This document shows, piece after piece, positions 20,624-60,932 of a stretch of DNA of 64,000 nucleotides. Position numbers and translations under genes: made by a program. This stretch comes from an uncultured Gammaproteobacteria bacterium. GTDB lineage: Bacteria; Pseudomonadota; Gammaproteobacteria; Steroidobacterales; Steroidobacteraceae. The notes beneath the pieces are model-generated. The model was not told where the DNA came from and did not search any database. It saw nothing but the letters and a program-made list of their open reading frames with translations. Every line of letters begins with the position of its first letter. Positions within the stretch are counted from its first letter, which is position 1. Location: contig CAWJIS010000002.1 in NCBI GenBank assembly GCA_963843035.1, positions 249,243 through 313,242 on the forward strand, given 5' to 3'.

Positions 20624-20632
20624 GACGCGCGC

Positions 20633-42698: not shown

Positions 42699-44510
42699 TC
42701 AGTGCGCCGACTCGTCGGCCTTGAGCCGGACCTCGGGAAAGTATAGTCCCAGCAAGCGCCGCTCCCACCATTGTCCGCGGGCCTTCGCGCCGGCGTCGCT
42801 ATAGGTGTAGTCGTAGAACCTGGCGCGGATGTAGAGCGGTGGGCTGTCCGGAAAGGGATTCCTGGCGAGGAGCGACGTGACCGCCGGCTCGTTGTGCAGC
42901 AGCCTCTCGAGGAACAGCCAGAACCATCGCAGCCGCTGCGGATCCTCGAGCGCCGCGAACCACATCTGCCAGTCGAGGCGTGGCTGGTGGGGAATGTTCC
43001 AGGGCGGGCGCCGCGACAGATCACCCGGCTTGTAGCGGAATTCGTATTCGCGCCATTCAACCCCGTCGCTCGAGCCCTCGATGACGATCTCGTCGCGTTG
43101 CGTCGTCATGACTGCGAACAGGCCATAGGAGCTCACCAGGTGCAGCGGCTCGATGAGCGCATCGACCGCGCGCGCGGCCGCGGGCGGGCTGCCGCCGAAG
43201 CGCAGGTCCATCTCGATGAGGCTGCAGAACACGAGCAGGCTCGCCACAGCGCCGACCGCGATCCGCCTCACGGCGCGCGGCAGCAGCGCTCGTCCCGGCC
43301 GCGGCATCCAGGCGCGCAGGCGCTGCGGCACGATCCTCGCGACGGCCGCGTCATCGAACAGCGGCAGGCACAACAACATGGTCTGCAGGTTGAACCAGTT
43401 GTAGTTGCCGGTGAGCAGGATGCCACTCTGCAGCAGCAGGAGACCTGCGGCGGCGCAGAAGCGCAGGCGCCGCGGGGTGAAGATGAGGAACGGCAGGCCG
43501 AGCTCGATGGCGAAGGTGCTGCCGGTGGCGAAGGTCAGCACGGCGTGTGGCAGGCGCGCGGCATACCAGGCGAGCGGTGTCGGCAGCGGCTGAGTGAGAA
43601 AGTGGTACGACAGCGCCGACAGGTTCCACCAGTTCGGATCGCCGCTCAGGAGCTTCACCACGCCCGACATGAACATGAAGCGGAACAGCAGCCAGCGCAG
43701 CAGCCAGATTCCCGGGGTGGGAGCGCAGCTCGCGAGCAGCGCGAGGAACCCGGCCTCGAGCAGGAACGTGTCCCACTGGTAGGTCATGAAGGCCTGGCCG
43801 GCGTACAGGAGCGAGAGGTACAAGATATAAAGGAGTAGCAGGCACAGCCGGGGCACGAGATTCAGCGTGAGCAGCACCGCCAGCCCGGCGCCGCCCCAGC
43901 ACACCGTCTGGATGGCGGCATCGCCGGCATTCCACCAGAAGACCATCGGCATGAGGTAGAAACGCTCCCATCCTGCGGCGTGGCGGACCGCATCGAGGAG
44001 CTCGGCGAGCGGCAGGATGCCGTGGCTGCCGATGAGGCCCTGCGCCTGCACGGCGAAGGAGGCGAAGGCCGCGAGGTAGATCAGCCCGAAGAGCCTTACG
44101 AACAGGAAGGAGACGAGCTCGTATCGCGGCGGCCCGTAGTCCCTGCCCCAGAGAAGGAGGCTGATGCGATGAAAGGCCGGTCGGTGCCGGGCGATGAAGG
44201 CGTAAGTCCATTCCGAGAGGGCGGCGAATCCGGGCAGACGGCGGTAGAGCGCCAGCCACAGTCGTTTTCCAGGTGCGTGGCTCAGGGTGAGGAAGCTCGC
44301 CTCGGCCGCGCTCGCACGCCGTCCATCGGGAGCGAGGTACTGAACCGCGCGCTGGAAGTCGGCGAGCGGGATCGCCGGAAACTGCGCCGCGACTTCTTGG
44401 TAAGGCTGGTAGCGGACGCGGTCTCCCGTGAGTTTCTGCCAGTAGCGAGCCCAGTAGCTGCAAAACCCACAGTCGCCGTCGTAGATCAGGAGTGGCGTGC
44501 GAGCGTCCAT
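42699..44510 (-). CDS. Fusion of a DCC-family (DUF393) thiol-disulfide oxidoreductase domain with a lipase-maturation-factor (LMF1-like) polytopic membrane domain
   Basis: ORF 42699..44780; start moved to ATG 44510 (MDARTPLLIYDGDCGFCSYWARYW is the DCC CxxC motif). Then a long hydrophobic domain with LMF-like segments (LIGSHGILPL, FYLMPMVFWWN, YQWDTFLLEAGFLALL, FRYKPGDLSRRPPWNIPHQPRLDWQMWFAAL). Confidence 0.7.
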   Translation of the reverse strand: MDARTPLLIYDGDCGFCSYWARYWQKLTGDRVRYQPYQEVAAQFPAIPLADFQRAVQYLAPDGRRASAAEASFLTLSHAPGKRLWLALYRRLPGFAALSEWTYAFIARHRPAFHRISLLLWGRDYGPPRYELVSFLFVRLFGLIYLAAFASFAVQAQGLIGSHGILPLAELLDAVRHAAGWERFYLMPMVFWWNAGDAAIQTVCWGGAGLAVLLTLNLVPRLCLLLLYILYLSLLYAGQAFMTYQWDTFLLEAGFLALLASCAPTPGIWLLRWLLFRFMFMSGVVKLLSGDPNWWNLSALSYHFLTQPLPTPLAWYAARLPHAVLTFATGSTFAIELGLPFLIFTPRRLRFCAAAGLLLLQSGILLTGNYNWFNLQTMLLCLPLFDDAAVARIVPQRLRAWMPRPGRALLPRAVRRIAVGAVASLLVFCSLIEMDLRFGGSPPAAARAVDALIEPLHLVSSYGLFAVMTTQRDEIVIEGSSDGVEWREYEFRYKPGDLSRRPPWNIPHQPRLDWQMWFAALEDPQRLRWFWLFLERLLHNEPAVTSLLARNPFPDSPPLYIRARFYDYTYSDAGAKARGQWWERRLLGLYFPEVRLKADESAH

Positions 44511-44562
44511 TTGCTTCAGCGCCGCAGGCGGCGTTACTGCGGCCTGCGGTTGGGGCAGCTCC

Positions 44563-45540
44563 TCAGGCGAAGCGGTGACCGAGAATCGCCAGACAGAGCG
44601 TGATGCTGCCGAGCGCGTGAACGCCCAAGGTGAGCTCGATGCTCTTCCTGAGCCGCGGCCGGGCGGCCGATTCCACGCTGATGCCGCGGGCCGCCATGGT
44701 GCCGGCGAGCGCAAGCGCCGCGGCGGGCAGGAGGTACCAGAGCGGCAGCGCGGCGATCGCCACCGCCCCGAGGCTCGCAACGAGCGCGAGCGCGGTCAGG
44801 CCCAGGTAGATGACGCGCGTGCCGACCGGGCCGAGCCGCACGACGAGCGTACGCTTGCCGGCGCGCGCATCCGCGTCACGGTCCGGAACCTCGTTGATCA
44901 GCAGAATGGCCGCCACCCAGGCACCCACCGGGAGCGACACCAGCACTGCCCCGAGATTCACCGGGGCGCCCTGCAGCCACGCCGCACCGAGAACCGGCAG
45001 CGGCCCGAAGCCCACGGCCACCGCCAGCTCGCCGACTCCGCGTGCGGAGAGCTGCACGCCCGGCATCGAGTAAAGGATTCCGAGCGCGAGTCCGGCGAGC
45101 CCGAGCAGCACCACACCTGGGCCGCGCAACAGGGTCAGCACGAAACCGACGACGAGTGCCGCCACCGCCAGCCCGAGCGCAAGACGCGCCATCTCGGCGC
45201 GCGTGAGCAGCCCCGTCTGGATGAAGCGCGATCCGCCCGTGTAAGGGTAGATGCGCTCGCTGTTGCCTTCGTCGGCGCCGATGACGTCATCGCCGACGTC
45301 GTTGTAGACGTTGGTCGCGCCGTGCGCGAGCACCGTGGCTGCGAGGGCGAGCACGAGCAGCAGCCAGTCGACATGCCCGACGGCCGCGGCTGCCCAGGCC
45401 GTGCCGACGAAGACCGGCAGCACCGAGGCGGTATAAAAGGCGGGCCGCGTCGAGAGGAACAGGCGCTTCGCGGCCGCACCGGGCCCGGGTGCGGCGAGTG
45501 CCGGCGAGGGACGGTCGGGGGGATTTGAGGTCGCAGTCAC
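44563..45540 (-). CDS. UbiA-superfamily prenyltransferase, MenA-like
   Basis: ORF 44563..46164; GTG 45540 overlaps the stop of the upstream gene (GTGA). Asp-rich motifs NVYNDVGDD and NEVPDRDADARAGKRTLVV (MenA-type N-x3-D-x3-D...GK-x-TL). Confidence 0.75.
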   Translation of the reverse strand: MTATSNPPDRPSPALAAPGPGAAAKRLFLSTRPAFYTASVLPVFVGTAWAAAAVGHVDWLLLVLALAATVLAHGATNVYNDVGDDVIGADEGNSERIYPYTGGSRFIQTGLLTRAEMARLALGLAVAALVVGFVLTLLRGPGVVLLGLAGLALGILYSMPGVQLSARGVGELAVAVGFGPLPVLGAAWLQGAPVNLGAVLVSLPVGAWVAAILLINEVPDRDADARAGKRTLVVRLGPVGTRVIYLGLTALALVASLGAVAIAALPLWYLLPAAALALAGTMAARGISVESAARPRLRKSIELTLGVHALGSITLCLAILGHRFA

Positions 45541-46265
45541 GGGGTTGGTGAGGTCCGCTCGGGGCTCAGCCCAGCATAGCGCAGTTGGTCGGAGCCGCGC
45601 TTTCCGGGCGCACACCGCTGGGCGACCACGACCTGATAGAGCCCGAGGAACAGCCGCTGCTCCGTCCAGTGGAACAGGTCGGCCCGCTCGGCAAAGCTTG
45701 CGATGGTGCCGCGCCACAGACTCGCCGCATATGGCTCGAGCCAGCGGTTCACGAGCCACATCAGGCCGCGCAGCGGGTGGAACCAGCGCGGACGGGCATA
45801 GTCGACGAACACCGCGCGCCCGCCGGGCTTCAACCGTGCCAGCAGCGCATTGACGGCGCGGCGCTTGTAGGTGTCCGGCATCTCGTGGAGAAGAAAGAAG
45901 CAGCACACGCCGTCGTAGGACTCGCGGCCCGGCGCCGTGGCATCCGCCAGCCTGACGCTGCTGTTCGCGCGCGTGGCGAGCTTCGCGCGCAGGTGCTCGA
46001 CCTGCAGCCGCGAGACGTCGATGACCGTGAGCCGGCCGGCCGGGCCGAGGTGGTCGGCGAGCCTGAGCGGCTGGCTCCCGTAGACGCTGGCAGCCTGTAG
46101 CACGTGCTCGCCCGGGCGGAATTGCGCGCAGGCGGCGCGCACCAGCCGCCCATAGTTGCCCCACAGAATCGCGTTGACGACGAGCTCACGATCGAGCAGG
46201 TGCAGTGATCGCGGGTGCAGGTAGGCCCAGGCGTAGGTCTGCGCGAGGTAGTCGGGTAGAGCCAC
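45537..46265 (-). CDS. rquA: RquA-like class-I methyltransferase-fold protein (candidate rhodoquinone biosynthesis enzyme)
   Basis: 242 aa. N-terminal PDYLAQTYAWAYLHP...VVNAILWGNYGRL. Degenerate SAM motif I VLQAASVYG (46077..46103) in place of VLDxGxGxG. FFLLHEMP and VFVDY segments. From memory this pattern matches RquA rather than UbiE/UbiG. Confidence 0.55.
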   Translation of the reverse strand: MALPDYLAQTYAWAYLHPRSLHLLDRELVVNAILWGNYGRLVRAACAQFRPGEHVLQAASVYGSQPLRLADHLGPAGRLTVIDVSRLQVEHLRAKLATRANSSVRLADATAPGRESYDGVCCFFLLHEMPDTYKRRAVNALLARLKPGGRAVFVDYARPRWFHPLRGLMWLVNRWLEPYAASLWRGTIASFAERADLFHWTEQRLFLGLYQVVVAQRCAPGKRGSDQLRYAGLSPERTSPTP

Positions 46266-46367: not shown

Positions 46368-48506
46368 TCAGGGCGGCGGCGGGTTGCCGGCCGCACCGAA
46401 CTGGTAGCGGAAGGTGAGCGCCACCAGGTTCACGTTGTCGGCCCACGGCTGCACGCCGAGCGCCAGCAGGTTCGGGATCGTGCCGGGCCCGACATCGCCC
46501 AGGGCCCAGTCGCTCGAATCGTACTTCTCGTGGATGAAGCGCAGGTGTAGCTGTGCGGCCCGGGTCCACTGGTAGCGCAGGTCGAGCCGGACGCTGTCGA
46601 GGCGGCTCCAGTTCTGCGGGAAGGGCTCGGCAACCCCGCCTGCCTGGGTGTTGAAATCGCCGTACGAGGGCGCGTGGAGGTAGTCGAGGGCGAGCGTCCA
46701 GCGCGTCGCCATCACCCACTGGCCGCCGGCGCCGACGTTCCAGAAATGCTCGGAGTCGCCGACCTGCCAGGGCGCCGTCAGCGCTGCGGTGAACCCGTTC
46801 TGAAGCATGTCCAGCCGCTGATAGCCCCCGTCGATGTAGGCGCTGAAAGTCTCGCGCGGCGTCCAGGTGAGCGTGCTGGAAGCGCGCCGCTCATGCACGC
46901 TCTGCAGGCCGAGCTGCGACAGACGATAGTCATCGTTGGCGAAGAATCCTTCGACCGACCACGCGAGCGTCGCGGTCGCCTGCCACGACCCGGTGAGGGT
47001 AAAGAACTCGCGGTCGCGCGGCGCATAATCGAAGGCCCAGACGAGCGGGTTCTCGGCAGGCGGCAGTGCCGAGACAATGAAACCCGAGGTCTTGCGCGAG
47101 GCGTTGCCGCCCTTGAGCGTGAAGGCCAGTCCGTCGAGCGGCTCGAGCGTCGCGCGCACCCAGTTCTCGGTGTCGCGCGTGTCGCTGACGAGCTCGTCGG
47201 GCCCGAAGTGCGTGTTGAGGTATCTGCCGCCGACGCCGACGCGCAGCCAGCGCTCGAGCGCGTAATCGGCGCTCCCCTCGAGGCGCGTCCGGTCCTCGCT
47301 GTAGCGGGGTGTGGTGAACGCGCCCGCGCTCGGGAAGGTGTCGGTGGCCACATAGGCGAGGGTCAGGGGCGTCGTGTGGTCGTCGCGTCCGTCGTAGGTG
47401 GCATCGCCGCGCAGCGCGAGCTTCGGCAGCGGGTGCGCGGCGAGCCCGAGCGCGTAGTGCGACAGATGCACATCGCCGTCGAGCGCGGACGGCGTCGGGA
47501 CGGTGGCACCCGGCAGGGTGCTGAAGGGCAGAAAGCCCTCATCCTGCTTGAGGCTGCCCACGGATGCGGCGTAGGTGAGGGACGCCCCGAGCCAGTTGAA
47601 CGGCATATTGCCCGCCAGGGCGAACTGCTGCAGGTTGTTGTCCGGCGGCAGCGCGAGCCGCCCCTGGGTCGAGCCGGCGACGAAGGGCAGGTAGGGATTG
47701 GCGAACGTCAGGGAATCGATGTCGTTCTTGAACCAGGAGCCCGTGTAGGTGAGGCGCAGGCTGGCGCGGTGATCGGCCCAGGCCGCCCCGGCCTCGACGG
47801 TATCGGTGACGTAGTCGATCGGCTGCGGTAGCTGCGCGGCCTCGGTGAGGAAGCTGCCGCTGAAGAGACCCGTGCCGTCCTTCTCCTCGTGGCGGAACGC
47901 GGCGTGCAGCGTCCACGCGGAGCTCGCGATGTAGGATCCGAGGAGCGAGGCGGTGCGCCGGTCGTATTCGATGTTCACCGGCGCGAGCGTCGCGCCGAGC
48001 GCGCTCATGCCGGCGGTGCTGCCGGCCGGCACCCAGCTGCCGGGCAGGCTGAGATTACCGCTCCCCGCACCCAGGAAGGGCGTGACGCCGGTATCGTAGA
48101 GCCGTGTTGGTATGTCGTCGTAATCGACCTTGACCTCGAAGCGGCCTTCCCTGCCGACCGAGGCGGTTCCCTGGCGCGAAGCGAGCCCCAGATCCTCGAG
48201 ATCGAAGCTCGCGTTGGTGCCGTCGGCGCCGCGGTACTGCCCGGCGGCCGCGAGATCGGCGTACACGGTGCTGTGGTCGATGCCGGTATAGCGGCCGTAG
48301 CTGAAGTTCGCGCCGTGGGCATCCAGGGCGCCGACCTCGACATCCCCGGTGTAGCCCTCGAAGAAAGGACACTGCTCGCACTTCCACGCGCTGGTATCGG
48401 GTGCGGGGCCATCGGCCCAGGCGGCGCCGGCGGCCGCGAGCAGCGCGACCGCACCCGCGAGGCTCGATCGACGGTGGTGGCCCGAGGCAGGCTTCACGAC
48501 AGGCAT
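46368..48506 (-). CDS. mtrB: MtrB/PioB-family outer-membrane beta-barrel porin of a porin-cytochrome complex
   Basis: 712 aa with a signal peptide. N-terminal CxxC motif WKCEQCPFFEGYTG typical of MtrB. Long alternating beta-strand sequence ending in an aromatic-rich C-terminus. 7 nt downstream of the decahaem gene. Confidence 0.85.
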   Translation of the reverse strand: MPVVKPASGHHRRSSLAGAVALLAAAGAAWADGPAPDTSAWKCEQCPFFEGYTGDVEVGALDAHGANFSYGRYTGIDHSTVYADLAAAGQYRGADGTNASFDLEDLGLASRQGTASVGREGRFEVKVDYDDIPTRLYDTGVTPFLGAGSGNLSLPGSWVPAGSTAGMSALGATLAPVNIEYDRRTASLLGSYIASSAWTLHAAFRHEEKDGTGLFSGSFLTEAAQLPQPIDYVTDTVEAGAAWADHRASLRLTYTGSWFKNDIDSLTFANPYLPFVAGSTQGRLALPPDNNLQQFALAGNMPFNWLGASLTYAASVGSLKQDEGFLPFSTLPGATVPTPSALDGDVHLSHYALGLAAHPLPKLALRGDATYDGRDDHTTPLTLAYVATDTFPSAGAFTTPRYSEDRTRLEGSADYALERWLRVGVGGRYLNTHFGPDELVSDTRDTENWVRATLEPLDGLAFTLKGGNASRKTSGFIVSALPPAENPLVWAFDYAPRDREFFTLTGSWQATATLAWSVEGFFANDDYRLSQLGLQSVHERRASSTLTWTPRETFSAYIDGGYQRLDMLQNGFTAALTAPWQVGDSEHFWNVGAGGQWVMATRWTLALDYLHAPSYGDFNTQAGGVAEPFPQNWSRLDSVRLDLRYQWTRAAQLHLRFIHEKYDSSDWALGDVGPGTIPNLLALGVQPWADNVNLVALTFRYQFGAAGNPPPP

Positions 48507-48513
48507 CCCTTTC

Positions 48514-49443
48514 CTAGCGCATCAGCGCGCGGCCCGACGGATGGTTGGAGCCGTGCACCTGGGTGTGGCAGTTGACGCAGCCGCCGGCGAGCAGATAGGC
48601 GCTCGGCGCCCCGCCGGGCAGGCCTTGCGGGCTGTTGAGGATCGACGGATGCCCGGCGCCTTCGTGGCATTGCTGGCACAGGAACGGCGGCCGCGTCTTG
48701 AGCAGTGCCGGCTGAGCCGAGCCGTGTGCGTCGTGGCAGTTCGAGCAGTCTTCGGCGACCGGCTGATGCTCCCAGAGGAACGGTCCGCGGTATTCGGCAT
48801 GACAGCTGGTGCAGGTCTCGGTCACCGTGTTGGCGACCAGCTGGAACGGTCCCGGCGAGCCGTGCGGCGCATGGCAGGACGCGCAGGCCATCTTCCCCTC
48901 GCGCAGCGGATGATGCGAGGGCTTGAAGAGGTCGGTGTGCTCGGCCTGGTGGCAGCTCGTGCACACCTCGATCTGCGTCGCCGCGGTGAGCACCGGGTCG
49001 TGGGCCGCGTGCAGGGTGTGACAGGCCGCGCACGGCACCTCGCTCGCGGCATGCTGGCTCGTGGCCCACTCGTGTGCGGCGTTGGACTGATGACAGCCGA
49101 GGCACTGCGCATTCTGCCGCGCGGCCGGGGCGAGCGCGTGCGCGCCGAAATCCACGATGCCCGCCGGCTGCTTGCCGCGCGCCCGTACGTGCGCGCCGCC
49201 AGGTCCGTGGCAGGCCTCGCACTGCAGCCCCCCATGGCCGAAGGGGCCGCGGTCGTCCCTGGGACGGGCGTGCTTGGTCTTGAAGAGGCCGAGGAGCGCG
49301 GGATCGTCATGACAGCCGAGGCAGCTGTCGGCGCCTTTGGCGCTGTAGGCGGGAGCACTGTCCTCATTGGCGGCGAGCGCCTGGGTCATCGCGCCCGAGA
49401 GCAGCGCGATGACCAGGGCGGCCCTGGCCGCGGACAGCCGCAT
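48514..49443 (-). CDS. mtrA: MtrA/DmsE/PioA-family periplasmic decahaem c-type cytochrome
   Basis: 309 aa with a signal peptide. Ten CxxCH motifs: CLGCH, CEACH, CLGCH, CAACH, CTSCH, CASCH, CTSCH, CSNCH, CQQCH, CVNCH. Confidence 0.9.
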   Translation of the reverse strand: MRLSAARAALVIALLSGAMTQALAANEDSAPAYSAKGADSCLGCHDDPALLGLFKTKHARPRDDRGPFGHGGLQCEACHGPGGAHVRARGKQPAGIVDFGAHALAPAARQNAQCLGCHQSNAAHEWATSQHAASEVPCAACHTLHAAHDPVLTAATQIEVCTSCHQAEHTDLFKPSHHPLREGKMACASCHAPHGSPGPFQLVANTVTETCTSCHAEYRGPFLWEHQPVAEDCSNCHDAHGSAQPALLKTRPPFLCQQCHEGAGHPSILNSPQGLPGGAPSAYLLAGGCVNCHTQVHGSNHPSGRALMR

Positions 49444-49446
49444 CGC

Positions 49447-51924
49447 TCAGCGATCCGCGACCGGGATGTTGTGCACCACGGCCACGTCCGCGAGAGCCCC
49501 CGGTCCGTGGCACAGCGCGCAGGTCTCGACAGCCGTGCCCGGTATGGTGCGCCCTTCCGCGTCCTTCAGGACCGTGGTCGAGCCGCCCATCTGCATCATG
49601 TGCGACTGGGTCAGGCTGTCGAAGTGGCAGGCCGAGCACACCGCCATGTTGGCCGACGTCGCGATCGGATTGCCGGCCGTGGTCGGATCAGCCGGATTCT
49701 TCGACAGGCCGGTGTCGAAGGTCGTCGCCTGCACCGCGGTGTCATCCACCGGGTAGTAGGTGGCAGAGTTGTGACACATCGCGCAGTCGTTGAGCTGGCC
49801 CGGGAAGACCACGTTGCTGAAGTCACTCACCGATCCACCGAAGCCGTAGATCGCGGTGGGCGCTCCGGCCGCGGCGCGCACGCTGCCCGCGTGGATCATG
49901 TGGAACAGGAAGCGGCCATTGATGGACTGCTCCCACAGGCCGTCGACGCCGACCGCGGTCAGACCCTGGCGCTGACTGACGTCGGTCGAGGCCGGGTTGT
50001 GGCAGGCGACGCAGGCCTGTATGTCGTCGTTGCGATTACTGCCGTGCAGCTCGAGGCGGAAATGGCAGACGTCGCATTTGGCGATATTCACCACCGTGCG
50101 CCGCGGTACTACAGTTCCGCCCGAGACGTTGCCGTACCCCACCGTGGTCGTCACCGGAATGCGGTCCGCGCCGGGTCCGGTCGTGACGACGCCTGGGTGA
50201 CCCTCGAGCACGACGCCGAGGTTGGCGACGGCCGGGCAGGCCGTGGTGCTCGCCGGCGGACAGTTGGCGGCCGGTGCCGCCGGCAGTGCGGTCGTGGAGG
50301 TCAGCGTGAACGACCCGTTCGCCTGTTGCACCGGCGTGATCGCCCCGCCCGCACAGCCGGTACCGGCGAGTGGATTGAGCGAGACCGGCTGGCCCCAGCT
50401 CGCCGCCGCCGGCGCCGCGGCGCTGCCCCAGTTGGTGTAGTCGCTCGTCTCCCAGGCAATGTCGAGCGCCAGCCGTGCCGCGCCACCGCCGGCGCACACC
50501 GGCTTGCCCGTGCCCGGATCGGTGCCCGCAAAGGCCGGGTCCGTCAGGATGTTGTACGGGGCGTTGCTGTTGGTCGGATCGACCACCGAGAAGTTCACGA
50601 CCGGGAAGATGCTGGGAGCGGTCCCCGTGAAGCTGACGCTGTTGACGATGAACTTGAACTTGGTCGCCGCGACCTCGTCCGGAATCGTGTGGGCCGCGAC
50701 CACCTGGATCATTCCGTTATCGATGGTCGAGCTCGGACCATGACAGGTGGTGCACTGGCTGTCGTTGGCCGGCAGGTTCGCAGGACTGTGACCCGCGCCG
50801 GTGGTGAAATTGATGGTGTCGTGGCAGGCGCCGCACGCCTCGATGGTCGGCACCGCGGCATAGTTGCCCGCTTCGGTCGCCGCCGGCAGGTTCTGCTTGT
50901 GGCAGGTGGTGCAGTTGCGGGTGTCCTGCGGGAAGAGCACCGTGTTGAAGTTGTCGAGCGACTTTCCGTGGCCGACTATCCAGTAGCCCTGCGCGAGAGT
51001 TGGCGTGGTGTTGGAACCGGCGTGAAAGTCAGCGCTGCCCGTGAGGGCCAGACCGGGCGGCGTCTGGATGCTCGCCAGCGAGTTGCCCTGGTGGATCTTG
51101 TGGATCATCTGCTTGAAGTCGAGCGGATTGCCACTGTACGGGTCGGTGGTGCTCGGGTTGTGGCACATGACGCAGTACTGCGTCTCGACGCGGGCGCCGC
51201 CGTGCAGCATCAGCTGCGTGTGGCAGCCGTTGCAGGTCTGAAGCTCGATGATCTCGCGGCTGAAGATGCCGGTGGTCGCGCCGGTCGAGGGCTGGAACGT
51301 GTAGGAGCCGTTGTTGGCCTGCGCGAGCCCGCGGATCTCGAAGGCGACGCGATGCGTGAGAGTCGCGTCGTAGGTCACGATCGGATCGGTCTTGACGTCC
51401 TTCAGGAACGTGTACTGGTACGTGCCATCGCCGTTATCGACGAGCGTGCCCGAGGCGCCGTTCTCGGTCGTCGCCTGAGTGGCCGCTGCGGACAGACAAC
51501 TGGTCGCCCCGGTCGGACAACCCGAGGGCGTGACCGTCTGGTAGATGTAGGACTGCCAGGTGCTCGCCGCGCCGTTCTGACCCGGGGTGAGCTTGGCGAT
51601 CACCCAGCCGATGTCAGCGGCGGGCAGGCCCTTGAGCGGCACGCCGTTCTGGTCGGCGAGGGAGAACTTCACGACCGGCGGCGAATTGATGGTGACGCTG
51701 CTGATCGTCCCGACGATCTGCGTCGCCGTGCCGACATCGAGCGCTGCGACTCCGGCGCCGGGGCCCTGCGGGCCCGTGGGTCCGGCCGGCCCGGGCGGGC
51801 CGGCCTGGCCCTGTGGCCCGGTACTGCCGCTGCAGGCGGCGAGGAGCGCGGCGAGAGCGAGAACGGGCAGGCAAGCCCGGGCCGTTTGCTTCGTCAAGCG
51901 TGAGCCGAGGGATTCCCGATGCAT
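49447..51924 (-). CDS. mtrC: MtrC/OmcA-family outer-surface decahaem lipoprotein
   Basis: ORF 49447..52041; start placed at ATG 51924 (MHRESLGSRLTKQTARACLPVLALAALLAAC, lipobox LAAC). Ten CxxCH arranged 5 + 5 around a Cys-poor beta-type domain: CNGCH, CVMCH, CTTCH, CGACH, CTTCH / CDVCH, CVACH, CAMCH, CSACH, CALCH. Confidence 0.8.
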   Translation of the reverse strand: MHRESLGSRLTKQTARACLPVLALAALLAACSGSTGPQGQAGPPGPAGPTGPQGPGAGVAALDVGTATQIVGTISSVTINSPPVVKFSLADQNGVPLKGLPAADIGWVIAKLTPGQNGAASTWQSYIYQTVTPSGCPTGATSCLSAAATQATTENGASGTLVDNGDGTYQYTFLKDVKTDPIVTYDATLTHRVAFEIRGLAQANNGSYTFQPSTGATTGIFSREIIELQTCNGCHTQLMLHGGARVETQYCVMCHNPSTTDPYSGNPLDFKQMIHKIHQGNSLASIQTPPGLALTGSADFHAGSNTTPTLAQGYWIVGHGKSLDNFNTVLFPQDTRNCTTCHKQNLPAATEAGNYAAVPTIEACGACHDTINFTTGAGHSPANLPANDSQCTTCHGPSSTIDNGMIQVVAAHTIPDEVAATKFKFIVNSVSFTGTAPSIFPVVNFSVVDPTNSNAPYNILTDPAFAGTDPGTGKPVCAGGGAARLALDIAWETSDYTNWGSAAAPAAASWGQPVSLNPLAGTGCAGGAITPVQQANGSFTLTSTTALPAAPAANCPPASTTACPAVANLGVVLEGHPGVVTTGPGADRIPVTTTVGYGNVSGGTVVPRRTVVNIAKCDVCHFRLELHGSNRNDDIQACVACHNPASTDVSQRQGLTAVGVDGLWEQSINGRFLFHMIHAGSVRAAAGAPTAIYGFGGSVSDFSNVVFPGQLNDCAMCHNSATYYPVDDTAVQATTFDTGLSKNPADPTTAGNPIATSANMAVCSACHFDSLTQSHMMQMGGSTTVLKDAEGRTIPGTAVETCALCHGPGALADVAVVHNIPVADR
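51757..51819 (-). repeat. Collagen-like G-X-Y repeat just after the lipidated Cys of the MtrC-like protein
   Basis: GPQ-GQA-GPP-GPA-GPT-GPQ-GPG (residues 36-56 counted from ATG 51924). Confidence 0.85.
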
Positions 51925-51971
51925 AAACCACTCCCAAGCGCCGTCTTCGCGGCATTCACCCAATTTCATTC

Positions 51972-51989
51972 TCGCTTTTTTGAAAGCGA
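51972..51989. promoter_or_regulatory. Palindrome upstream of mtrC
   Basis: TCGCTTT-TTTG-AAAGCGA (7-bp arms), 48-65 nt upstream of the proposed mtrC start, in a locally AT-rich 235-bp divergent intergenic region. Confidence 0.3.
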
Positions 51990-52106
51990 AAACAAGATAG
52001 GCACTTACCCTTACGCTTTCATTACGTGGCGGTGCCTGCACGGCTGAGCGCCCCGAATTGACTTGGCCTGCCCCTTGTGGCTACCGTAGAAATTGAGAGG
52101 CATCAC

Positions 52107-52129
52107 AGTCCCCCGACGGTGCGGGGACT
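52107..52129 (+). promoter_or_regulatory. GC-rich stem-loop in the leader of the cytochrome c gene
   Basis: AGTCCCC-CGACGGTGC-GGGGACT (7-bp stem), 30 nt upstream of ATG 52160. There is no upstream same-strand gene for it to terminate. Confidence 0.25.
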
Positions 52130-52159
52130 CCACAATTGCATGCAAAGGGGACATCAGCG

Positions 52160-52765
52160 ATGAGAGCTGCATTACTCGCTGCAACGGCAGCGCTCGGGCT
52201 TCTTCCGGCGGTTGTGCTGGCCGCGCCCGATCCGAAGCTCCTCGAGAGCTGCCAGGACTGCCACGGCGCGAACGGAATCACGGGCGCGCAGGACGTTCCG
52301 ACGATCGCCGGCGTGTCCGCAACTGTGCAGAGCGATGCACTCAAGGCCTACAAGGCAAAGGCGCGGCCCTGCTCGAAGGTCCACTACAAGCGTGGTGACA
52401 CCAAGCGCGAGGGCGATATGTGCACCGTCGCCAAGGATCTGACGGATGCTCAGATCACTGATCTCACGGCGTATTTTGCCGCCAAGCCCTTCAGTGCGCT
52501 TAAGCAGCCCGCCGATGCCGCCAAGGCCGCGGCCGGCAAGCAGATTCACGACCGCGATTGTAAGAAATGTCATTCGTCCGGCGGCAAGGACCCGGCCGAT
52601 GATGCGGGAATCCTGGCCGGCCAGCCCGTTGCCTGGCTGAAGAGCTCCCTCGATTCCTACAAGAAGGGCGCGCTCGAGCAGCCGAAGAACATGAAGAGCG
52701 TCGTCACCAAGCTCTCGGATGCCGACGTCGAGGCGCTCGCCCAGTATTACGCCAGCGAGCAGTAG
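52160..52765 (+). CDS. Periplasmic dihaem class-I c-type cytochrome (c4-like)
   Basis: ORF 52136..52765; ATG 52160 is preceded by AAGGGG. Signal peptide MRAALLAATAALGLLPAVVLA. Two CxxCH motifs (CQDCH, CKKCH) in two repeated halves. Confidence 0.8.
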   Translation: MRAALLAATAALGLLPAVVLAAPDPKLLESCQDCHGANGITGAQDVPTIAGVSATVQSDALKAYKAKARPCSKVHYKRGDTKREGDMCTVAKDLTDAQITDLTAYFAAKPFSALKQPADAAKAAAGKQIHDRDCKKCHSSGGKDPADDAGILAGQPVAWLKSSLDSYKKGALEQPKNMKSVVTKLSDADVEALAQYYASEQ

Positions 52766-52781
52766 CGGGCCGCTCCGCCTC

Positions 52782-53183
52782 ATGAGCGGCACGGCCGCGC
52801 CAACCCGGTCCTTCGAGCCCGATCAGGCGTGGTGGCTGAGGCTGCTTGCCGTGATCGATGCCCGCGATGCGGACGGCTTCGTGTCCTTCCTCGCGCCGGA
52901 TGCCGAGTTCCGCTTCGGCAATGCGCCCGCGGTGCGCGGGCGCGAAGCGATCCGCGCGGCGGTGGCGGGTTTCTTCTCCCTGATCGCCGGCTGCCGTCAT
53001 CGACTGCTCGGCGCGTGGAACGGCCCCGGCACGACGGTCTGCGAGGGTGAGGTGACTTACACGCGCCAGGACGGCTCGACCGTGACGATACCCTTCGTCA
53101 ACGTGTTCGAGCTGCGTGGCGAGCGCGTCGCTTCCTACCGCATCTACATCGACAACGCGCCGCTTTTCGCAGAGGGCTCGTAA
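52782..53183 (+). CDS. SnoaL-like / NTF2-fold protein
   Basis: ORF 52719..53183; start at ATG 52782. WWLRLLAVIDARDADGFVSFLAPDAEFRFGNAPAVRGREAI...FELRGERVASYRIY is the SnoaL/DUF4440 pattern. Confidence 0.65.
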   Translation: MSGTAAPTRSFEPDQAWWLRLLAVIDARDADGFVSFLAPDAEFRFGNAPAVRGREAIRAAVAGFFSLIAGCRHRLLGAWNGPGTTVCEGEVTYTRQDGSTVTIPFVNVFELRGERVASYRIYIDNAPLFAEGS

Positions 53184-53196: not shown

Positions 53197-54204
53197 TCAA
53201 CAGATCCTCGGCAGGGGATCATCTTCGAGCTCATCGAGCACCCGCTGGCCGCCGAAGGTGGTGTCGAGCACTACCTGCCCGGGTCCCGCACGCAGCTCGC
53301 CGATCACTACAGCGCTCGGCGCCACGGCGCGCAGCTCTCCGAGCGCCGCCGCACTCGCTTCGGGGGCGACCACCGCGACCACACGACCCTCGCAGGCGAG
53401 ATAGAGCGGATCGAAGCCGAGCAGCTCGCAAACCGACTGCACGGCGTCGTTGACCGGAATGCGTGCCTCATCGAGCTGCACGCGCAGCCCTGTCGCCCGC
53501 GCCAGCTCGTGCGCCACGGTGGCGAGACCACCGCGGGTCGGATCGCGCATGAAGCGTAAGCCCGGCACCTTGAGCAGGGCCTGCGCTTCGGGCAGCACGC
53601 TGGCGGCATCCGACTTCAGATCCCCCCGCAGGCCGAATTCCTGCCGTGCGAGCAGCACTGCGGCGCCATGGTCCCCTACCGGCCCGCTCACCAGGACGCG
53701 GTCGCCGGCGCGCACCTCCCCGAAGCCGAGCCGCGTGCCGCGCGGCCGAAAACCCACTCCCGTCGCCGCGAGGTAGATGCCGTCGCAGTCGCCGCGCCCG
53801 AGCACCTTGGTGTCTCCGGCCACCACCGCAACCCCGCAGTCGCGCGCCGCCTGCGCGAGAGCGGTGATCACGCGGTGTAACAGCGCGATCTCCAGGCCCT
53901 CCTCGAGAAAGGTACTGAGTGTCATGAAGCGCGGCAGCGCGCCGCTCACGGCGAGATCGTTGACCGTACCGTGCACGGCGAGGGAGCCGATATTGCCGCC
54001 GGGGAACTCGAGCGGCTGCACGGTGAAGCCGTCGGTCGTGACGACCAGCTCGAGGTCGTCCGGGGTCGGCAGGCCGACCGCGTCGGCGCGCGTGTCGAGC
54101 AGCGGATTGCCGAGCGCCGGCACGAAGAGATCCTCGATGAGCTCGCGCATCAGCCGGCCACCGTTGCCATGCGCGAGGCTCACGTGCTGGTCGCGGCGCG
54201 GCAT
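53197..54204 (-). CDS. hypE: [NiFe]-hydrogenase maturation protein HypE
   Basis: 335 aa, AIR-synthase-like fold. LAHGNGG N-terminus and the diagnostic C-terminal PRIC. Confidence 0.95.
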   Translation of the reverse strand: MPRRDQHVSLAHGNGGRLMRELIEDLFVPALGNPLLDTRADAVGLPTPDDLELVVTTDGFTVQPLEFPGGNIGSLAVHGTVNDLAVSGALPRFMTLSTFLEEGLEIALLHRVITALAQAARDCGVAVVAGDTKVLGRGDCDGIYLAATGVGFRPRGTRLGFGEVRAGDRVLVSGPVGDHGAAVLLARQEFGLRGDLKSDAASVLPEAQALLKVPGLRFMRDPTRGGLATVAHELARATGLRVQLDEARIPVNDAVQSVCELLGFDPLYLACEGRVVAVVAPEASAAALGELRAVAPSAVVIGELRAGPGQVVLDTTFGGQRVLDELEDDPLPRIC

Positions 54205-54218
54205 CGGAGCTGCCCGTC

Positions 54219-59367: not shown

Positions 59368-59599
59368 CGGCGCTCTCCCCGAGTCGGGCGGCGAGCTCCT
59401 CGAACAACGCCAGGGTCTTCTCCGCCTCCGCGACGTCGAGGCGGGCAATGGCGAAGCCGGCGTGCACGATGACGTAGTCGCCGACCGCGACCTCATCGAT
59501 CAGCGAGGCCGATACCCGCGTGCGAACCCCGCCAACCTCGGTCTCGATCCACGACTCATCGAGACGCGCTGTCACCAGTACCGGAATAGCGAGGCACAT
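59342..59599 (-). CDS. hypC: HypC/HupF-family chaperone
   Basis: ATG 59599 within ORF 59342..59845 gives the invariant MCLAIP N-terminus. 85 aa; overlaps the hypD start by 26 nt. Confidence 0.9.
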   Translation of the reverse strand: MCLAIPVLVTARLDESWIETEVGGVRTRVSASLIDEVAVGDYVIVHAGFAIARLDVAEAEKTLALFEELAARLGESADAVHPRLP

Positions 59600-59603
59600 G
59601 AGC

Positions 59604-60392: not shown

Positions 60393-60414
60393 CGGTCTCT
60401 CTCCGCTTCAGGAC

Positions 60415-60786
60415 TCAGTGAACCGGGACAGGGTGCTCTTCCGGCACGTCGAGCTCAACACCCCGCAGCCGCAGCTCGTCGCCCTCGAGCACGCGTGTGT
60501 GGTAGCCCCCGCAGCTCGCGCACAGCAGGCGGTTGGGCTGCGCGCGCGAGCTCGCGCCACACTCGCTGCAGCGCACCATGATCTCAGGCACCGTAATCGA
60601 GAGCTCAGCTTGGGCGGCGCAGGTCCCCACGCGCGCGATCTCGAAGGCTCGCGCAAGCAGCTCGGGCTCGACGCCGGAGAGCGGTCCGATCTCGAGCGTG
60701 ATGCGCCCAACCGCACGTGCCTCGCGGCTGGCGGCGATCTTCGCCACCTCATCGATCAGAGCCTGGCATATCGACAGCTCGTGCAC
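60415..60786 (-). CDS. hypA: Nickel insertion protein HypA
   Basis: MHELSICQ N-terminus (Ni site) and Zn site CSECG...CASCGG. 123 aa. Confidence 0.95.
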   Translation of the reverse strand: MHELSICQALIDEVAKIAASREARAVGRITLEIGPLSGVEPELLARAFEIARVGTCAAQAELSITVPEIMVRCSECGASSRAQPNRLLCASCGGYHTRVLEGDELRLRGVELDVPEEHPVPVH

Positions 60787-60932
60787 CCTGACCCCCCGGA
60801 GACACGCTGGATTTGGTCTCAGACAAAGACCATGCTACGCGCTGGTGCCGGCGCTCGGGTAGTGGAATGCACGTATTGTCGTCCGCGCGCGCGCGTTTCG
60901 ATAATCGGCCACTTTTGCCAGGGGGGATGCAG

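What the first reader, a model, noticed from the sequence alone, without database searches (positions are those of the whole stretch)
46368..51924. Complete mtrC-mtrA-mtrB-type porin-cytochrome conduit for extracellular electron transfer
Three adjacent same-strand genes with 3-nt and 7-nt gaps encode a 10-haem outer-surface lipoprotein with the 5+5 haem layout of MtrC/OmcA, a 10-haem periplasmic MtrA/DmsE-type cytochrome, and a 712-aa beta-barrel with the MtrB N-terminal CxxC motif (CEQC). Together these are the architecture of the trans-outer-membrane conduit known from Shewanella. An MtrC-type partner is absent from the Fe(II)-oxidising MtoAB/PioAB variants, so its presence points to outward electron transfer to minerals or electrodes, though direction cannot be read from sequence. 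No CymA/NapC-type quinol dehydrogenase is in the window.
Basis: partly seen in the sequence, partly recalled or inferred. Interest (0 to 1): 0.7.

Follow-up and report, generated by a model that had tools for sequence, protein, structure and literature searches.

The report
MtrCAB electron conduit with rhodoquinone gene
This is a genuine but ordinary MtrCAB-type outer-membrane "electron wire" in an uncultured soil Steroidobacteraceae bacterium. The one unusual feature is that a rhodoquinone-synthesis gene (rquA) lies directly after it, which suggests which membrane quinone may feed the wire.

Summary
On the minus strand, mtrC (49447-51924, 825 aa, lipobox, 10 CxxCH as 5+5), mtrA (48514-49443, 309 aa, 10 CxxCH) and mtrB (46368-48506, 712 aa, N-terminal CEQC) are separated by 3 and 7 nt. 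All three pass the curated OmcA/MtrC, DmsE and MtrB/PioB models and match the Shewanella baltica MtrCAB structure 6R2Q.

The source is a Steroidobacteraceae MAG. Dozens of related soil and peat MAGs carry the same cluster, already auto-annotated, so the conduit is a new member of a known kind.

- A PdsA-like dihaem periplasmic cytochrome lies divergently upstream (52160-52765).
- RquA, the enzyme that turns ubiquinone into low-potential rhodoquinone, lies 102 nt after mtrB (45537-46265), followed by a MenA-like prenyltransferase.

mtrB-rquA adjacency recurs in 12 Steroidobacteraceae-type contigs and, independently, in Burkholderiales. No paper in the searched library links rhodoquinone to Mtr.

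No CymA/NapC gene is in the window, although 20 of 26 sister loci have one beside mtrC. Outward electron transfer is the likelier direction but is not proven.

The parts
49447..51924 (-). mtrC: outer-membrane decahaem lipoprotein of the OmcA/MtrC family, 825 aa. It has a conserved (Gly-X-Y)7-8 linker after the lipobox Cys31, beta-barrel domains I and III, and pentahaem domains II and IV.
   Evidence: TIGR03507 484.6 bits (cutoff 209.3), PF22113 and PF22112. Ten CxxCH in a 5+5 layout, all invariant in 50 homologues. The best PDB sequence hits are OmcA 4LMH and MtrF 3PMQ. The only significant Foldseek hits are OmcA, MtrC and UndA, on a low-confidence model.
48514..49443 (-). mtrA: periplasmic decahaem cytochrome of the MtrA/DmsE family, 309 aa, which would be inserted into the MtrB barrel.
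   Evidence: TIGR03508 282.3 bits (cutoff 192.2). Matches 6R2Q chain A at E 1.9e-79 over residues 29-309, 49% identity. Ten CxxCH and a Sec signal.
46368..48506 (-). mtrB: outer-membrane beta-barrel sheath of the MtrB/PioB family, 712 aa, with an N-terminal CEQC motif.
   Evidence: PF11854 383.9 bits; TIGR03509 335.2 bits (cutoff 240). Matches 6R2Q chain B at E 2.9e-58, residues 26-701 against 25-693, with CEQC aligned to CKGC. An N-terminal CxxC was found in nearly all Steroidobacteraceae-type MtrB sequences checked.
52160..52765 (+). pdsA-like periplasmic dihaem cytochrome c, 201 aa, transcribed divergently from mtrC. It is a candidate shuttle between an inner-membrane quinol oxidase and MtrA.
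   Evidence: NF049874 PdsA at E 1.8e-55, 187.9 bits, full-length, but below the 330-bit cutoff. Two CxxCH and a signal peptide. The exact 201-aa model is on record. Orthologues sit beside mtrCAB in L002, L004, L027, L081, L087, L089 and L093.
51925..52159 (.). Divergent mtrC / pdsA-like intergenic region of 235 nt, relatively A+T-rich. Presumed promoter region.
   Evidence: Sequence read directly. No sigma-70 consensus site was found in the intergenic region and no FNR-box consensus in the window, so regulation is unknown.
45537..46265 (-). rquA: rhodoquinone biosynthesis enzyme (methyltransferase-like; converts ubiquinone to rhodoquinone). It lies 102 nt downstream of mtrB on the same strand.
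   Evidence: NF038261 RquA equivalog 283.4 bits (cutoff 175). The canonical SAM motif I reads VLQAASVYG; disrupted SAM motifs are described for RquA. No terminator-like site was found between mtrB and rquA. The same mtrB-rquA junction, with a 69-116 nt gap, occurs in 12 Steroidobacteraceae-type contigs and in Piscinibacter L060.
44563..45540 (-). MenA-like UbiA-family prenyltransferase, 325 aa, overlapping rquA by 4 nt. Its head-group specificity is unknown and its link to the conduit is inferred from synteny only.
   Evidence: PF01040 128.5 bits. TIGR00751 menA 105.7 bits against a cutoff of 102.15; all other MenA models fall below their cutoffs. A 62-71% identical orthologue lies just after mtrB in 13 of 26 Steroidobacteraceae-type loci.

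Best explanation
The region encodes a complete, intact MtrCAB-type porin-cytochrome conduit in an uncultured Steroidobacteraceae gammaproteobacterium. In the model from the homologous structure, MtrA (10 haems) threads the MtrB barrel and hands electrons to the surface lipoprotein MtrC (10 haems). I infer that the conduit most likely carries electrons outward to Fe(III)/Mn(IV) minerals, humic substances or electrodes.

The inferred chain has four steps:
1. Electron donors, including H2 through the neighbouring [NiFe] hydrogenases, reduce the membrane quinone pool.
2. An inner-membrane quinol oxidase that is not in this window oxidises the quinol. Most sister lineages have a CymA/NapC-type tetrahaem cytochrome beside mtrC.
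3. The PdsA-like dihaem cytochrome ferries electrons across the periplasm to MtrA.
4. MtrA passes them to MtrC.

Because rquA is probably co-transcribed with mtrCAB, I propose that the quinol used is rhodoquinol. Its potential is about -63 mV. It would play the role that menaquinol plays in Shewanella.

Shown here: the gene content, family memberships, conservation and synteny. Inferred: direction of flow, surface exposure of MtrC, the shuttle role of the PdsA-like protein, and the use of rhodoquinol. My sub-confidences are: identity as MtrCAB about 0.95, outward direction about 0.65, rhodoquinol as donor about 0.35-0.4.
For: **Identity.**
- Curated HMMs are passed over the full model length for all three proteins.
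- All three match the 6R2Q chains or the OmcA/MtrF structures.
- There are 10+10 CxxCH motifs, a lipobox and signal peptides.
- All haem motifs are invariant in 50 homologues.
- Foldseek finds only OmcA, MtrC and UndA.

**Conservation.**
- The mtrC-mtrA-mtrB order holds in Steroidobacteraceae MAGs from many soil and peat studies.

**Direction and upstream chain.**
- Of 26 Steroidobacteraceae-type loci, 20 have a NapC/NirT-type tetrahaem gene beside mtrC and 17 have a [NiFe] uptake-type hydrogenase.
- L081 carries cymA-like, pdsA-like, mtrCAB and rquA in a single cluster.
- pdsA next to mtrCAB is the published Group 2/3 architecture (PMC8805035).
- The MtrB CxxC motif is conserved.

**Rhodoquinone.**
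- RquA passes the equivalog cutoff.
- rquA follows mtrB on the same strand in 12 contigs whose MtrB is 65-100% identical to the window's.
- It does so again in Burkholderiales (L057, L060), where MtrC is only about 30% and RquA about 41-43% identical, so these are independent arrangements.
- Other Steroidobacteraceae-type contigs place rquA at the head of ccmABC..., next to multihaem cytochromes or an MtrAB-like pair.
- RQ is a low-potential quinone at -63 mV (PMC11707229).
- From my own knowledge, the Shewanella Mtr pathway needs menaquinone.
Against: - No inner-membrane quinol dehydrogenase is in the 64 kb, so the chain is incomplete as seen.
- The PdsA-like protein scores below the curated PdsA cutoff (188 against 330 bits).
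- Direction cannot be read from sequence. MtrC homologues also accompany mtrAB in MAGs labelled Gallionellaceae and Thiobacillaceae, and L063 also has an N-terminal CxxC in its MtrB.
- Only 3 of the 26 genome loci have rquA within 10 kb.
- In Burkholderiales rquA is followed by frdAB, and L086 has frdAB-rquA without mtr. The classical role of RQ in fumarate reduction could therefore explain rquA, with the adjacency reflecting a shared anaerobic island.
- Whether this organism also makes menaquinone is unknown.
- The AlphaFold model of MtrC is poor (mean pLDDT 52, TM 0.23-0.34 to the PDB hits).
- There are no expression or physiological data.
Confidence: 0.7

Rival explanations
1. The same conduit runs inward. 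It would take electrons from Fe(II), reduced humics or cathodes to the periplasm and on to oxidases or nitrate reductases, as proposed for MtoAB/PioAB.
For: - From my own knowledge, Mtr conduits are reversible in Shewanella.
- MtrC-bearing clusters occur in MAGs labelled Gallionellaceae (L063) and Thiobacillaceae (L069).
- A cytochrome bd oxidase is in the window, and a cbb3 oxidase is near the L081 cluster.
- No CymA is in the window.
Against: - Sister loci pair the cluster with NapC/CymA-type quinol dehydrogenases and uptake-type hydrogenases.
- The PdsA family name comes from the Aeromonas/Vibrio MtrCAB pathway.
- A low-potential quinone gene in the operon makes quinone reduction from Fe(II) more uphill, not less (inference from potentials).
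- No mtoC/mtoD-like or Cyc2-like gene is present: the window holds only three CxxCH ORFs.
Confidence: 0.15
2. MtrCAB is real, but the rquA adjacency is not mechanistic. Rhodoquinone would serve only fumarate reductase or other reductases, and Mtr would be fed from another quinol pool. The genes would sit together because they belong to one anaerobically regulated or co-transferred island.
For: - rquA is followed by frdAB in L057, L060 and L071, and in L086 without any mtr genes.
- Baker et al. already reported frdABCD and ccm as frequent neighbours of Group 4 mtrCAB.
- Most Steroidobacteraceae mtr loci lack rquA within 10 kb.
- Some rquA contexts show no cytochrome genes at all (L085; L096, L099 and L101).
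Against: - In the window lineage no frd gene is within 10 kb.
- rquA lies 69-116 nt after mtrB on the same strand in 12 contigs, and no terminator-like site was found in the window between mtrB and rquA.
- A second, unrelated arrangement, rquA-ccm next to multihaem or porin-cytochrome genes, again ties rquA to c-type cytochrome systems.
Confidence: 0.4
3. Electrons bypass the quinone pool. The periplasmic [NiFe] hydrogenase would reduce the PdsA-like cytochrome directly, and this would reduce MtrA.
For: - Hydrogenase structural or maturation genes flank the cluster here (hypE, hypF, hypD, hypB and small and large subunits across 53197-63772).
- A [NiFe] hydrogenase is present in 17 of 26 sister loci.
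- No quinol oxidase is in the window.
Against: - Such a path keeps both protons and electrons outside the inner membrane, so it conserves no energy (inference).
- Sister loci keep a CymA-type quinol dehydrogenase between the hydrogenase and mtrC.
- rquA and the menA-like gene in the operon point to quinone involvement.
Confidence: 0.08
4. The cluster is a decaying or silent horizontally acquired remnant.
For: Mtr clusters are mobile (PMC8805035). MtrC is swapped in L089, at 46% identity while MtrA and MtrB are 83-90% identical.
Against: - All ORFs are intact, with every haem motif, signal peptide and lipobox present.
- GC3 values of 0.86-0.89 match the neighbouring genes.
- The arrangement is conserved in many independent metagenomes.
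Confidence: 0.03

Closest known systems
Shewanella MtrCAB (S. baltica structure PDB 6R2Q; S. oneidensis MR-1 pathway with CymA and menaquinone)
   Same: Same three-component architecture and the same mtrC-mtrA-mtrB gene order. There are 10+10 haems. MtrA is 49% identical, and MtrB aligns end to end with the N-terminal CxxC in register. MtrC has the same four-domain layout and lipoprotein signal.
   Different: - MtrC is about 150 aa longer (825 aa). It is closer to OmcA and MtrF than to MtrC itself in sequence searches.
- There are no OmcA or MtrDEF paralogues.
- No CymA is in the window.
- A PdsA-like dihaem protein takes the place that, to my knowledge, FccA/CctA hold in Shewanella.
- rquA (rhodoquinone) is in the operon, where Shewanella relies on a menaquinone pathway.
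Aeromonas/Vibrio-type and 'Group 3' gammaproteobacterial mtrCAB-pdsA-cymA/netBCD clusters (Baker et al. 2022, PMC8805035)
   Same: A pdsA-like gene lies directly beside mtrCAB in a gammaproteobacterium. Sister contigs L081 and L027 have cymA-like plus pdsA-like plus mtrCAB, which is exactly that published module.
   Different: - Here the quinol dehydrogenase gene is missing from the neighbourhood, with no NetB- or CymA-type cytochrome in 64 kb.
- The PdsA-like protein is below the curated PdsA cutoff.
- Steroidobacteraceae are not named in the main text of that survey.
- rquA, the menA-like gene and hydrogenase neighbours are not mentioned there.
Burkholderiales 'Group 4' mtrCAB clusters flanked by frdABCD and ccmA-I (Baker et al. 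2022)
   Same: The mtr cluster is joined to other anaerobic-respiration genes. In L057 (Ramlibacter) and L060 (Piscinibacter) an rquA that passes the RquA cutoff sits between mtrB and frdA.
   Different: The proteins are only distantly related: MtrC about 30%, MtrB about 24%, RquA 41-43% identical. Those loci carry frdAB and several mtrC paralogues. The window has neither.
MtoAB / PioAB Fe(II)-oxidising porin-cytochrome pairs
   Same: Homologous MtrA/DmsE-family decahaem protein and MtrB/PioB-family barrel.
   Different: The window adds an MtrC-family surface cytochrome, a PdsA-like shuttle and rquA. No MtoC/MtoD-type genes are present. Placement of MtrA on an Mtr versus Mto/Pio tree could not be done here.
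RquA-dependent rhodoquinone / fumarate reductase system (Rhodospirillum rubrum and other Pseudomonadota)
   Same: The RquA equivalog model is passed at 283 bits against a cutoff of 175. RquA alone converts UQ to RQ (PMC9814641).
   Different: Here rquA follows an extracellular electron-transfer operon, with no fumarate reductase nearby. The RquA literature read here states that no genes genetically linked to rquA had been identified.

Membership tests
OmcA/MtrC decahaem outer-membrane cytochromes | Passes the curated family model over its full length | tested here: met
   TIGR03507 484.6 bits against a cutoff of 209.3, model positions 2-672 of 672. PF22113 178 bits in two stretches; PF22112 62 bits.
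OmcA/MtrC decahaem outer-membrane cytochromes | Ten CxxCH motifs arranged 5+5 in domains II and IV, separated by beta-barrel domains I and III | tested here: met
   Motifs start at 231, 251, 338, 364, 391 and 617, 638, 714, 763, 802 and are invariant in 50 homologues. AlphaFold gives confident beta-rich segments at about 60-210 and 420-600.
OmcA/MtrC decahaem outer-membrane cytochromes | Overall fold superposes on solved MtrC/OmcA structures | tested here: inconclusive
   The only Foldseek hits with E<1e-3 are OmcA 4LMH (3.5e-23), MtrC 6QYC and 8QC9, and UndA 3UCP. However, TM is 0.23-0.34 and the model's mean pLDDT is 52, because the haem domains fold poorly without haem.
OmcA/MtrC decahaem outer-membrane cytochromes | Lipoprotein exported to the outer face of the outer membrane | not testable with these tools
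   The lipobox LAAC31 with Ser at +2 is present. Surface exposure needs experiment.
MtrA/DmsE periplasmic decahaem cytochromes | Passes the curated model, has ten CxxCH and a Sec signal, and is about 300-350 aa | tested here: met
   TIGR03508 282.3 bits against 192.2. 6R2Q_A at E 1.9e-79, 49% identity. Ten motifs and a signal ending ALA|AN.
MtrB/PioB decahaem-associated outer-membrane barrel | Passes the curated models and aligns full-length to a solved MtrB | tested here: met
   PF11854 383.9 bits (cutoff 23). TIGR03509 335.2 bits (cutoff 240). 6R2Q_B at E 2.9e-58 over residues 26-701.
MtrB/PioB decahaem-associated outer-membrane barrel | N-terminal CxxC motif, which from my own knowledge is associated with metal-reducing gammaproteobacterial MtrB | tested here: met
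   C43-E-Q-C46 aligns with CKGC of S. baltica MtrB. The motif is conserved in Steroidobacteraceae-type MtrB and absent from most Burkholderiales MtrB in the set, but it is also present in a Gallionellaceae MAG, so it does not mark direction.
MtrB/PioB decahaem-associated outer-membrane barrel | 26-strand barrel enclosing MtrA | not tested
   No structure prediction was run for MtrB. The feature is inferred from the full-length homology to 6R2Q_B.
MtrCAB conduit (as an operon) | Adjacent, co-oriented mtrC, mtrA and mtrB | tested here: met
   Gaps of 3 and 7 nt. The same order holds in most of the 79 related genome loci.
Mtr (reducing) clade as opposed to the Mto/Pio (oxidising) clade | MtrA and MtrB branch with experimentally reducing systems | not tested
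   No MtoA or PioA reference sequences could be obtained. The only available figure is 49% identity to S. baltica MtrA.
PdsA periplasmic dihaem shuttle | Passes the curated PdsA model | tested here: not met
   NF049874 is by far the best hit (E 1.8e-55, model positions 18-198 of 198), but 187.9 bits is below the 330-bit cutoff. It is therefore called PdsA-like.
CymA/NapC/NirT or NetBCD quinol dehydrogenase in the locus | A tetra- or pentahaem membrane cytochrome gene near mtrCAB | tested here: not met
   Only three CxxCH-bearing ORFs exist in 64 kb. A NapC/NirT-type gene is present in 20 of 26 sister loci (TIGR02161 188-189 bits, below the 310 cutoff).
RquA rhodoquinone biosynthesis enzyme | Passes the equivalog model and has a divergent SAM motif I | tested here: met
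   NF038261 283.4 bits against 175, model positions 1-218 of 218. Motif I reads VLQAASVYG. Close relatives are named RquA by PGAP.
RquA rhodoquinone biosynthesis enzyme | Converts ubiquinone to rhodoquinone in vivo | not testable with these tools
   Needs quinone analysis or expression in E. coli.
MenA (1,4-dihydroxy-2-naphthoate prenyltransferase) | Passes curated MenA models | tested here: inconclusive
   TIGR00751 scores 105.7 bits against a cutoff of 102.15. Eight other MenA models score far below their cutoffs. The orthologue in L010 scores 86.8 bits, below the cutoff.

The most novel reading that the evidence does not exclude
mtrCAB-rquA is a functional unit. In ubiquinone-based Pseudomonadota (Steroidobacteraceae and some Burkholderiales), rhodoquinol made by RquA would be the low-potential quinol that drives Mtr-type extracellular electron transfer. 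It would replace the menaquinol of Shewanella. As far as I could find in the searched library, this would be a new bacterial role for rhodoquinone beyond fumarate reduction. It would also explain how bacteria without menaquinone can run a horizontally acquired Mtr pathway.
Probability: 0.35. Interest if true: 0.7.

Novelty: new member of a known kind. Interest (0 to 1): 0.4.

Why it matters
The conduit itself adds little. MtrCAB homologues are already known to be widespread and horizontally mobile, and close relatives of these genes are auto-annotated in public MAGs.

It does show that an abundant, uncultured soil and peat family, the Steroidobacteraceae, carries a conserved Mtr cluster embedded among hydrogenase genes. 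That is relevant to H2-driven iron, manganese and humic reduction in soils.

The more useful outcome is a testable idea. The survey of Mtr distribution (PMC8805035) assumes the recipient of a transferred cluster needs menaquinone. Here and in several Burkholderiales the cluster travels with rquA, which makes a low-potential quinone from ubiquinone in one step. If rhodoquinol feeds Mtr, it would:
- change how extracellular electron-transfer potential is predicted from genomes;
- give a one-gene way to make ubiquinone-only chassis strains competent for Mtr-based bioelectrochemistry.

Tried and rejected
1. **Menaquinone (futalosine) cluster next to mtr in sister loci.** I asked whether the genes after the MenA-like prenyltransferase form such a cluster. 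They do not. In L007 they encode a group 3b-type [NiFe] hydrogenase and its protease.
2. **Fumarate reductase beside the window's rquA.** None was found in the window or in L002 and L004.
3. **NetBCD or any further cytochrome in the window.** A CxxCH scan of all six frames found only MtrC, MtrA and the dihaem protein.
4. **FNR/CRP-type box.** TTGAT-N4-ATCAA with up to 1 mismatch gave no match anywhere in the window. The sigma-70 and terminator scans were uninformative.
5. **Walking along the 363-kb source contig to find a quinol oxidase.**
   - The MtrB look-up returned only a 5-kb Logan contig.
   - The hydrogenase large-subunit look-up found no record.
6. **Global structural superposition of MtrC.** The AlphaFold model is too poor in the haem domains (pLDDT 52). 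Only the identity of the hits is used, not the TM-scores.
8. **Literature.** No paper in the library holds both 'rhodoquinone' and 'MtrCAB'. None of the top hits joins rhodoquinone with multihaem cytochromes or iron reduction. The only two papers with both 'Steroidobacteraceae' and 'MtrC' mention each term only once or twice, with neither in the title or abstract.


Full report
**Observation**

- mtrC is 49447-51924 (825 aa), mtrA is 48514-49443 (309 aa), and mtrB is 46368-48506 (712 aa). The gaps are 3 and 7 nt.
- MtrC begins with a signal peptide ending in the lipobox L-A-A-C31, with Ser at +2. It carries ten CxxCH motifs in two groups of five, at 231, 251, 338, 364, 391 and 617, 638, 714, 763, 802.
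- MtrA has a Sec signal and ten CxxCH motifs.
- MtrB has a signal peptide, and its only two cysteines form C43-E-Q-C46.
- A six-frame scan of the whole window finds only one further CxxCH-bearing ORF, a dihaem protein.
- The same protein sequences are already called genes in public collections, on a 363-kb contig.

**Family assignment**

- MtrC scores 484.6 bits on TIGR03507, the OmcA/MtrC family (cutoff 209), across the whole model. It also hits the OmcA-like N-terminal domain and, twice, the MtrC/MtrF domain II/IV model.
- MtrA scores 282.3 bits on TIGR03508, the DmsE family (cutoff 192).
- MtrB scores 383.9 bits on PF11854 and 335.2 bits on TIGR03509 (cutoff 240).
- Against solved structures, MtrA matches chain A of the S. 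baltica MtrCAB complex 6R2Q at E 2e-79, with 49% identity over 276 aligned positions.
- MtrB matches chain B end to end at E 3e-58, with CEQC in register with the Shewanella CKGC.
- MtrC matches OmcA, MtrF, UndA and MtrC.
- In an alignment of 50 homologues of 64-87% identity, all ten haem motifs are invariant. Cys136, Cys524 and the pair 555/563 are also invariant, and Cys143 and Cys477 nearly so. A Gly-X-Y repeat linker after the lipobox is likewise conserved.
- An AlphaFold model built on that alignment is poor overall (mean pLDDT 52). It is confident only in the two beta-rich domains (about 60-210 and 420-600), as expected for a haem-free prediction.
- Foldseek nevertheless returns only OmcA, MtrC and UndA as significant hits (E 3.5e-23 to 2.4e-13). 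TM-scores of 0.23-0.34 are too low to claim global superposition.

Whether MtrC is surface-exposed rather than periplasmic cannot be tested here.

**Source and spread**

- The closest proteins and loci come from Steroidobacteraceae MAGs (Gammaproteobacteria) assembled from soil and peat. Relatives are named by PGAP or JGI as OmcA/MtrC, DmsE and MtrB/PioB family proteins.
- 1845 MtrC homologues passed E 1e-10 among the scored candidates.
- The survey by Baker et al. (PMC8805035) established that MtrCAB is widespread and mobile. It reported pdsA beside mtrCAB in all of its Group 2 and most gammaproteobacterial Group 3 clusters. Steroidobacteraceae are not named in its main text.
- The conduit is thus a new member of a known kind.

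1. Divergently upstream of mtrC, across a 235-nt A+T-richer spacer, lies a 201-aa dihaem cytochrome (52160-52765). Its best family match by far is the periplasmic shuttle PdsA (E 1.8e-55, full-length), though it falls below the curated cutoff.
2. The next gene, 102 nt after mtrB on the same strand, is RquA (45537-46265). It scores 283.4 bits on the equivalog model NF038261 (cutoff 175) and has a degenerate SAM motif I. RquA alone converts ubiquinone to rhodoquinone (PMC9814641).
3. A MenA-like UbiA-family prenyltransferase (44563-45540) overlaps rquA by 4 nt. It passes only one MenA model, and that marginally.

No terminator-like site was found between mtrC and this gene.

**Comparative context**

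Among 26 Steroidobacteraceae-type genome loci that hold both mtrC and mtrB, the neighbours within 10 kb are as follows:

| Neighbour | Loci out of 26 |
|---|---|
| NapC/NirT (CymA-like) tetrahaem gene, usually divergent from mtrC | 20 |
| [NiFe] hydrogenase | 17 |
| SnoaL-like gene | 15 |
| B12-radical-SAM gene of family TIGR04190 | 14 |
| MenA-like prenyltransferase just after mtrB | 13 |
| PdsA-like gene | 4 |
| rquA | 3 |

- In those sister loci the hydrogenase small and large subunit genes are separated by a DsrK-like gene.
- The window belongs to a minority lineage (window, L002, L004, and metagenome contigs L087-L093). In it, the CymA-like and radical-SAM genes are absent, pdsA-like plus SnoaL occupy that position, and rquA is inserted between mtrB and the prenyltransferase.
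- Contig L081 shows what I take to be the complete module: cymA-like, pdsA-like, mtrC, mtrA, mtrB, rquA.

**The rquA link**

- mtrB-rquA junctions on the same strand, with estimated gaps of 69-116 nt, occur in 12 Steroidobacteraceae-type contigs whose MtrB is 65-100% identical to the window's.
- Independently, in Burkholderiales whose MtrC is only about 30% and RquA 41-43% identical, an rquA that passes the cutoff again follows mtrB. This is seen in L060 (Piscinibacter), and in L057 (Ramlibacter) after a monohaem gene. It is then followed by frdAB. In L071 it lies 7 kb upstream with frdAB.
- Other Steroidobacteraceae-type contigs place rquA at the head of ccmABC...:
  - L082 and L083 lie opposite a cytochrome cluster that includes a multihaem c fused to a b-type cytochrome domain.
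  - L097 lies next to small c-type cytochrome genes.
  - L098 lies opposite an MtrA-like decahaem gene followed by a 721-aa ORF that I did not annotate (possibly the barrel).
- Some rquA contexts are the classical frdAB-rquA (L086) or unrelated (L085).
- Baker et al. noted frdABCD and ccmA-I beside Group 4 mtrCAB but never mention rquA, a methyltransferase or hydrogenases.
- No paper in the library contains both 'rhodoquinone' and 'MtrCAB'.
- The RquA biochemistry paper states that no genes genetically linked to rquA had been found.
- A quinone-evolution paper calls rquA very sparse and mostly betaproteobacterial.

**Mechanism**

Shown: an intact, conserved MtrCAB with a PdsA-like partner and a probably co-transcribed rquA.

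Inferred: quinol oxidation by an inner-membrane enzyme encoded outside this window (CymA-like in sister lineages), then PdsA-like, then MtrA inside MtrB, then MtrC, then external acceptors.

- The low potential of rhodoquinone (-63 mV) makes it a plausible replacement for the menaquinol that, to my knowledge, the Shewanella pathway requires. Cultured Steroidobacter species are reported with Q-8 as the major quinone (my own knowledge, not checked here).
- The flanking hyp genes, a group-1-type [NiFe] hydrogenase (60813-63772) and a group-4-like hydrogenase module (13981-21154) suggest H2 as one electron donor.
- Direction remains unproven. MtrC homologues accompany mtrAB in MAGs labelled Gallionellaceae and Thiobacillaceae, and the MtrB CxxC also occurs in the Gallionellaceae locus.

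**Verdict**

- As an MtrCAB conduit it is a routine new member of a well-known family, of low interest on its own.
- The recurrent mtrB-rquA adjacency is, as far as the searchable literature shows, unreported. It gives a concrete, cheaply testable hypothesis about which quinone feeds Mtr in bacteria that rely on ubiquinone. That raises the overall interest to moderate.

Noticed in passing
window 45537-46265 (-); also L002, L004, L081, L084, L087-L090, L092, L093, L057, L060, L071: rquA (rhodoquinone biosynthesis) lies directly after mtrB on the same strand in many contigs of two proteobacterial classes. No paper in the searched library links rhodoquinone with Mtr.
   Followed up: yes
window 44563-45540 (-); L006, L007, L009, L010, L013, L021, L023-L025, L028: An orphan MenA-like UbiA prenyltransferase is conserved immediately downstream of mtrB in 13 of 26 Steroidobacteraceae-type loci, with or without rquA. 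Its substrate is unknown. It is not part of a menaquinone gene cluster.
   Followed up: partly
window 42699-44780 (-): A fusion protein with a DCC1-like thiol-disulfide oxidoreductase domain and lipase-maturation-factor (LMF1) membrane domains follows the prenyltransferase. It is conserved in that position in the window lineage (L002, L004, L087-L090, L093).
   Followed up: no
window 52719-53183 (+); sister loci between mtrB and the UbiA gene: A SnoaL/NTF2-like gene is present near mtrCAB in 15 of 26 loci. Here it follows the pdsA-like gene. Elsewhere it sits between mtrB and the prenyltransferase, and in L003 it lies in the run UbiA, SnoaL, B12-rSAM, rquA.
   Followed up: partly
window 53197-63772; L005-L011, L015, L021, L022, L024, L025, L028: Hydrogenase genes flank the conduit. 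Here they are hypE, hypF, a HoxX/HypX-like formyltransferase-crotonase fusion, hypD, hypB and a group-1-type [NiFe] small and large subunit. In 17 of 26 sister loci a different [NiFe] hydrogenase, with a DsrK-like gene between its subunit genes, lies just upstream of cymA/mtrC. L007 also has a group-3b-type hydrogenase downstream.
   Followed up: partly
L003 2886-4679; L010 7493-9253 and 12 other loci: A B12-binding radical-SAM protein of the uncharacterised family TIGR04190 (598-611 bits, cutoff 500) sits between the hydrogenase and cymA-like genes in 14 of 26 loci, and next to rquA in L003. A role in modifying a quinone or cofactor is conceivable but untested.
   Followed up: no
window 13981-21154 (+): A complex-I-like, group-4 [NiFe]-hydrogenase-like module: antiporter-like subunit, NuoH-like subunit, fused 30/49-kDa-type large subunit and 20-kDa small subunit.
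   Followed up: no
window 2176-4855 (+): Cytochrome bd oxidase subunits I and II, preceded by a universal stress protein gene. Together with the hydrogenases, this suggests the window holds a concentration of low-oxygen respiration genes.
   Followed up: no
window MtrC residues 33-56 (DNA about 51757-51828): A collagen-like (Gly-X-Y)7-8 linker follows the lipidated Cys, with Gly conserved at every third position in 50 homologues. Gly-X-Y runs are also visible in the N-termini of Shewanella OmcA and MtrF in the PDB alignments, so it may be a family-wide tether.
   Followed up: partly
L089 (Ga0187781_10000304): MtrA, MtrB, RquA and UbiA are 83-90% identical to the window's, but MtrC is only 46% identical. 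The surface cytochrome has been exchanged or evolves much faster than the rest of the operon. L003 shows the converse: MtrC 86%, MtrB 61%.
   Followed up: partly
L082 7169-9112; L083 7149-9047; L098 893-4007; L003 5577-9114: Other candidate electron-transfer modules lie next to rquA in related bacteria. L082 and L083 have a 632-647 aa multihaem c-type cytochrome fused to a Ni_hydr_CYTB b-type domain (CbcL-like, my reading). L098 has an MtrA-like decahaem gene with an adjacent 721-aa ORF (not annotated; possibly the barrel) and no MtrC. L003 has an 11-haem protein plus an NrfH-like 5-haem protein.
   Followed up: no
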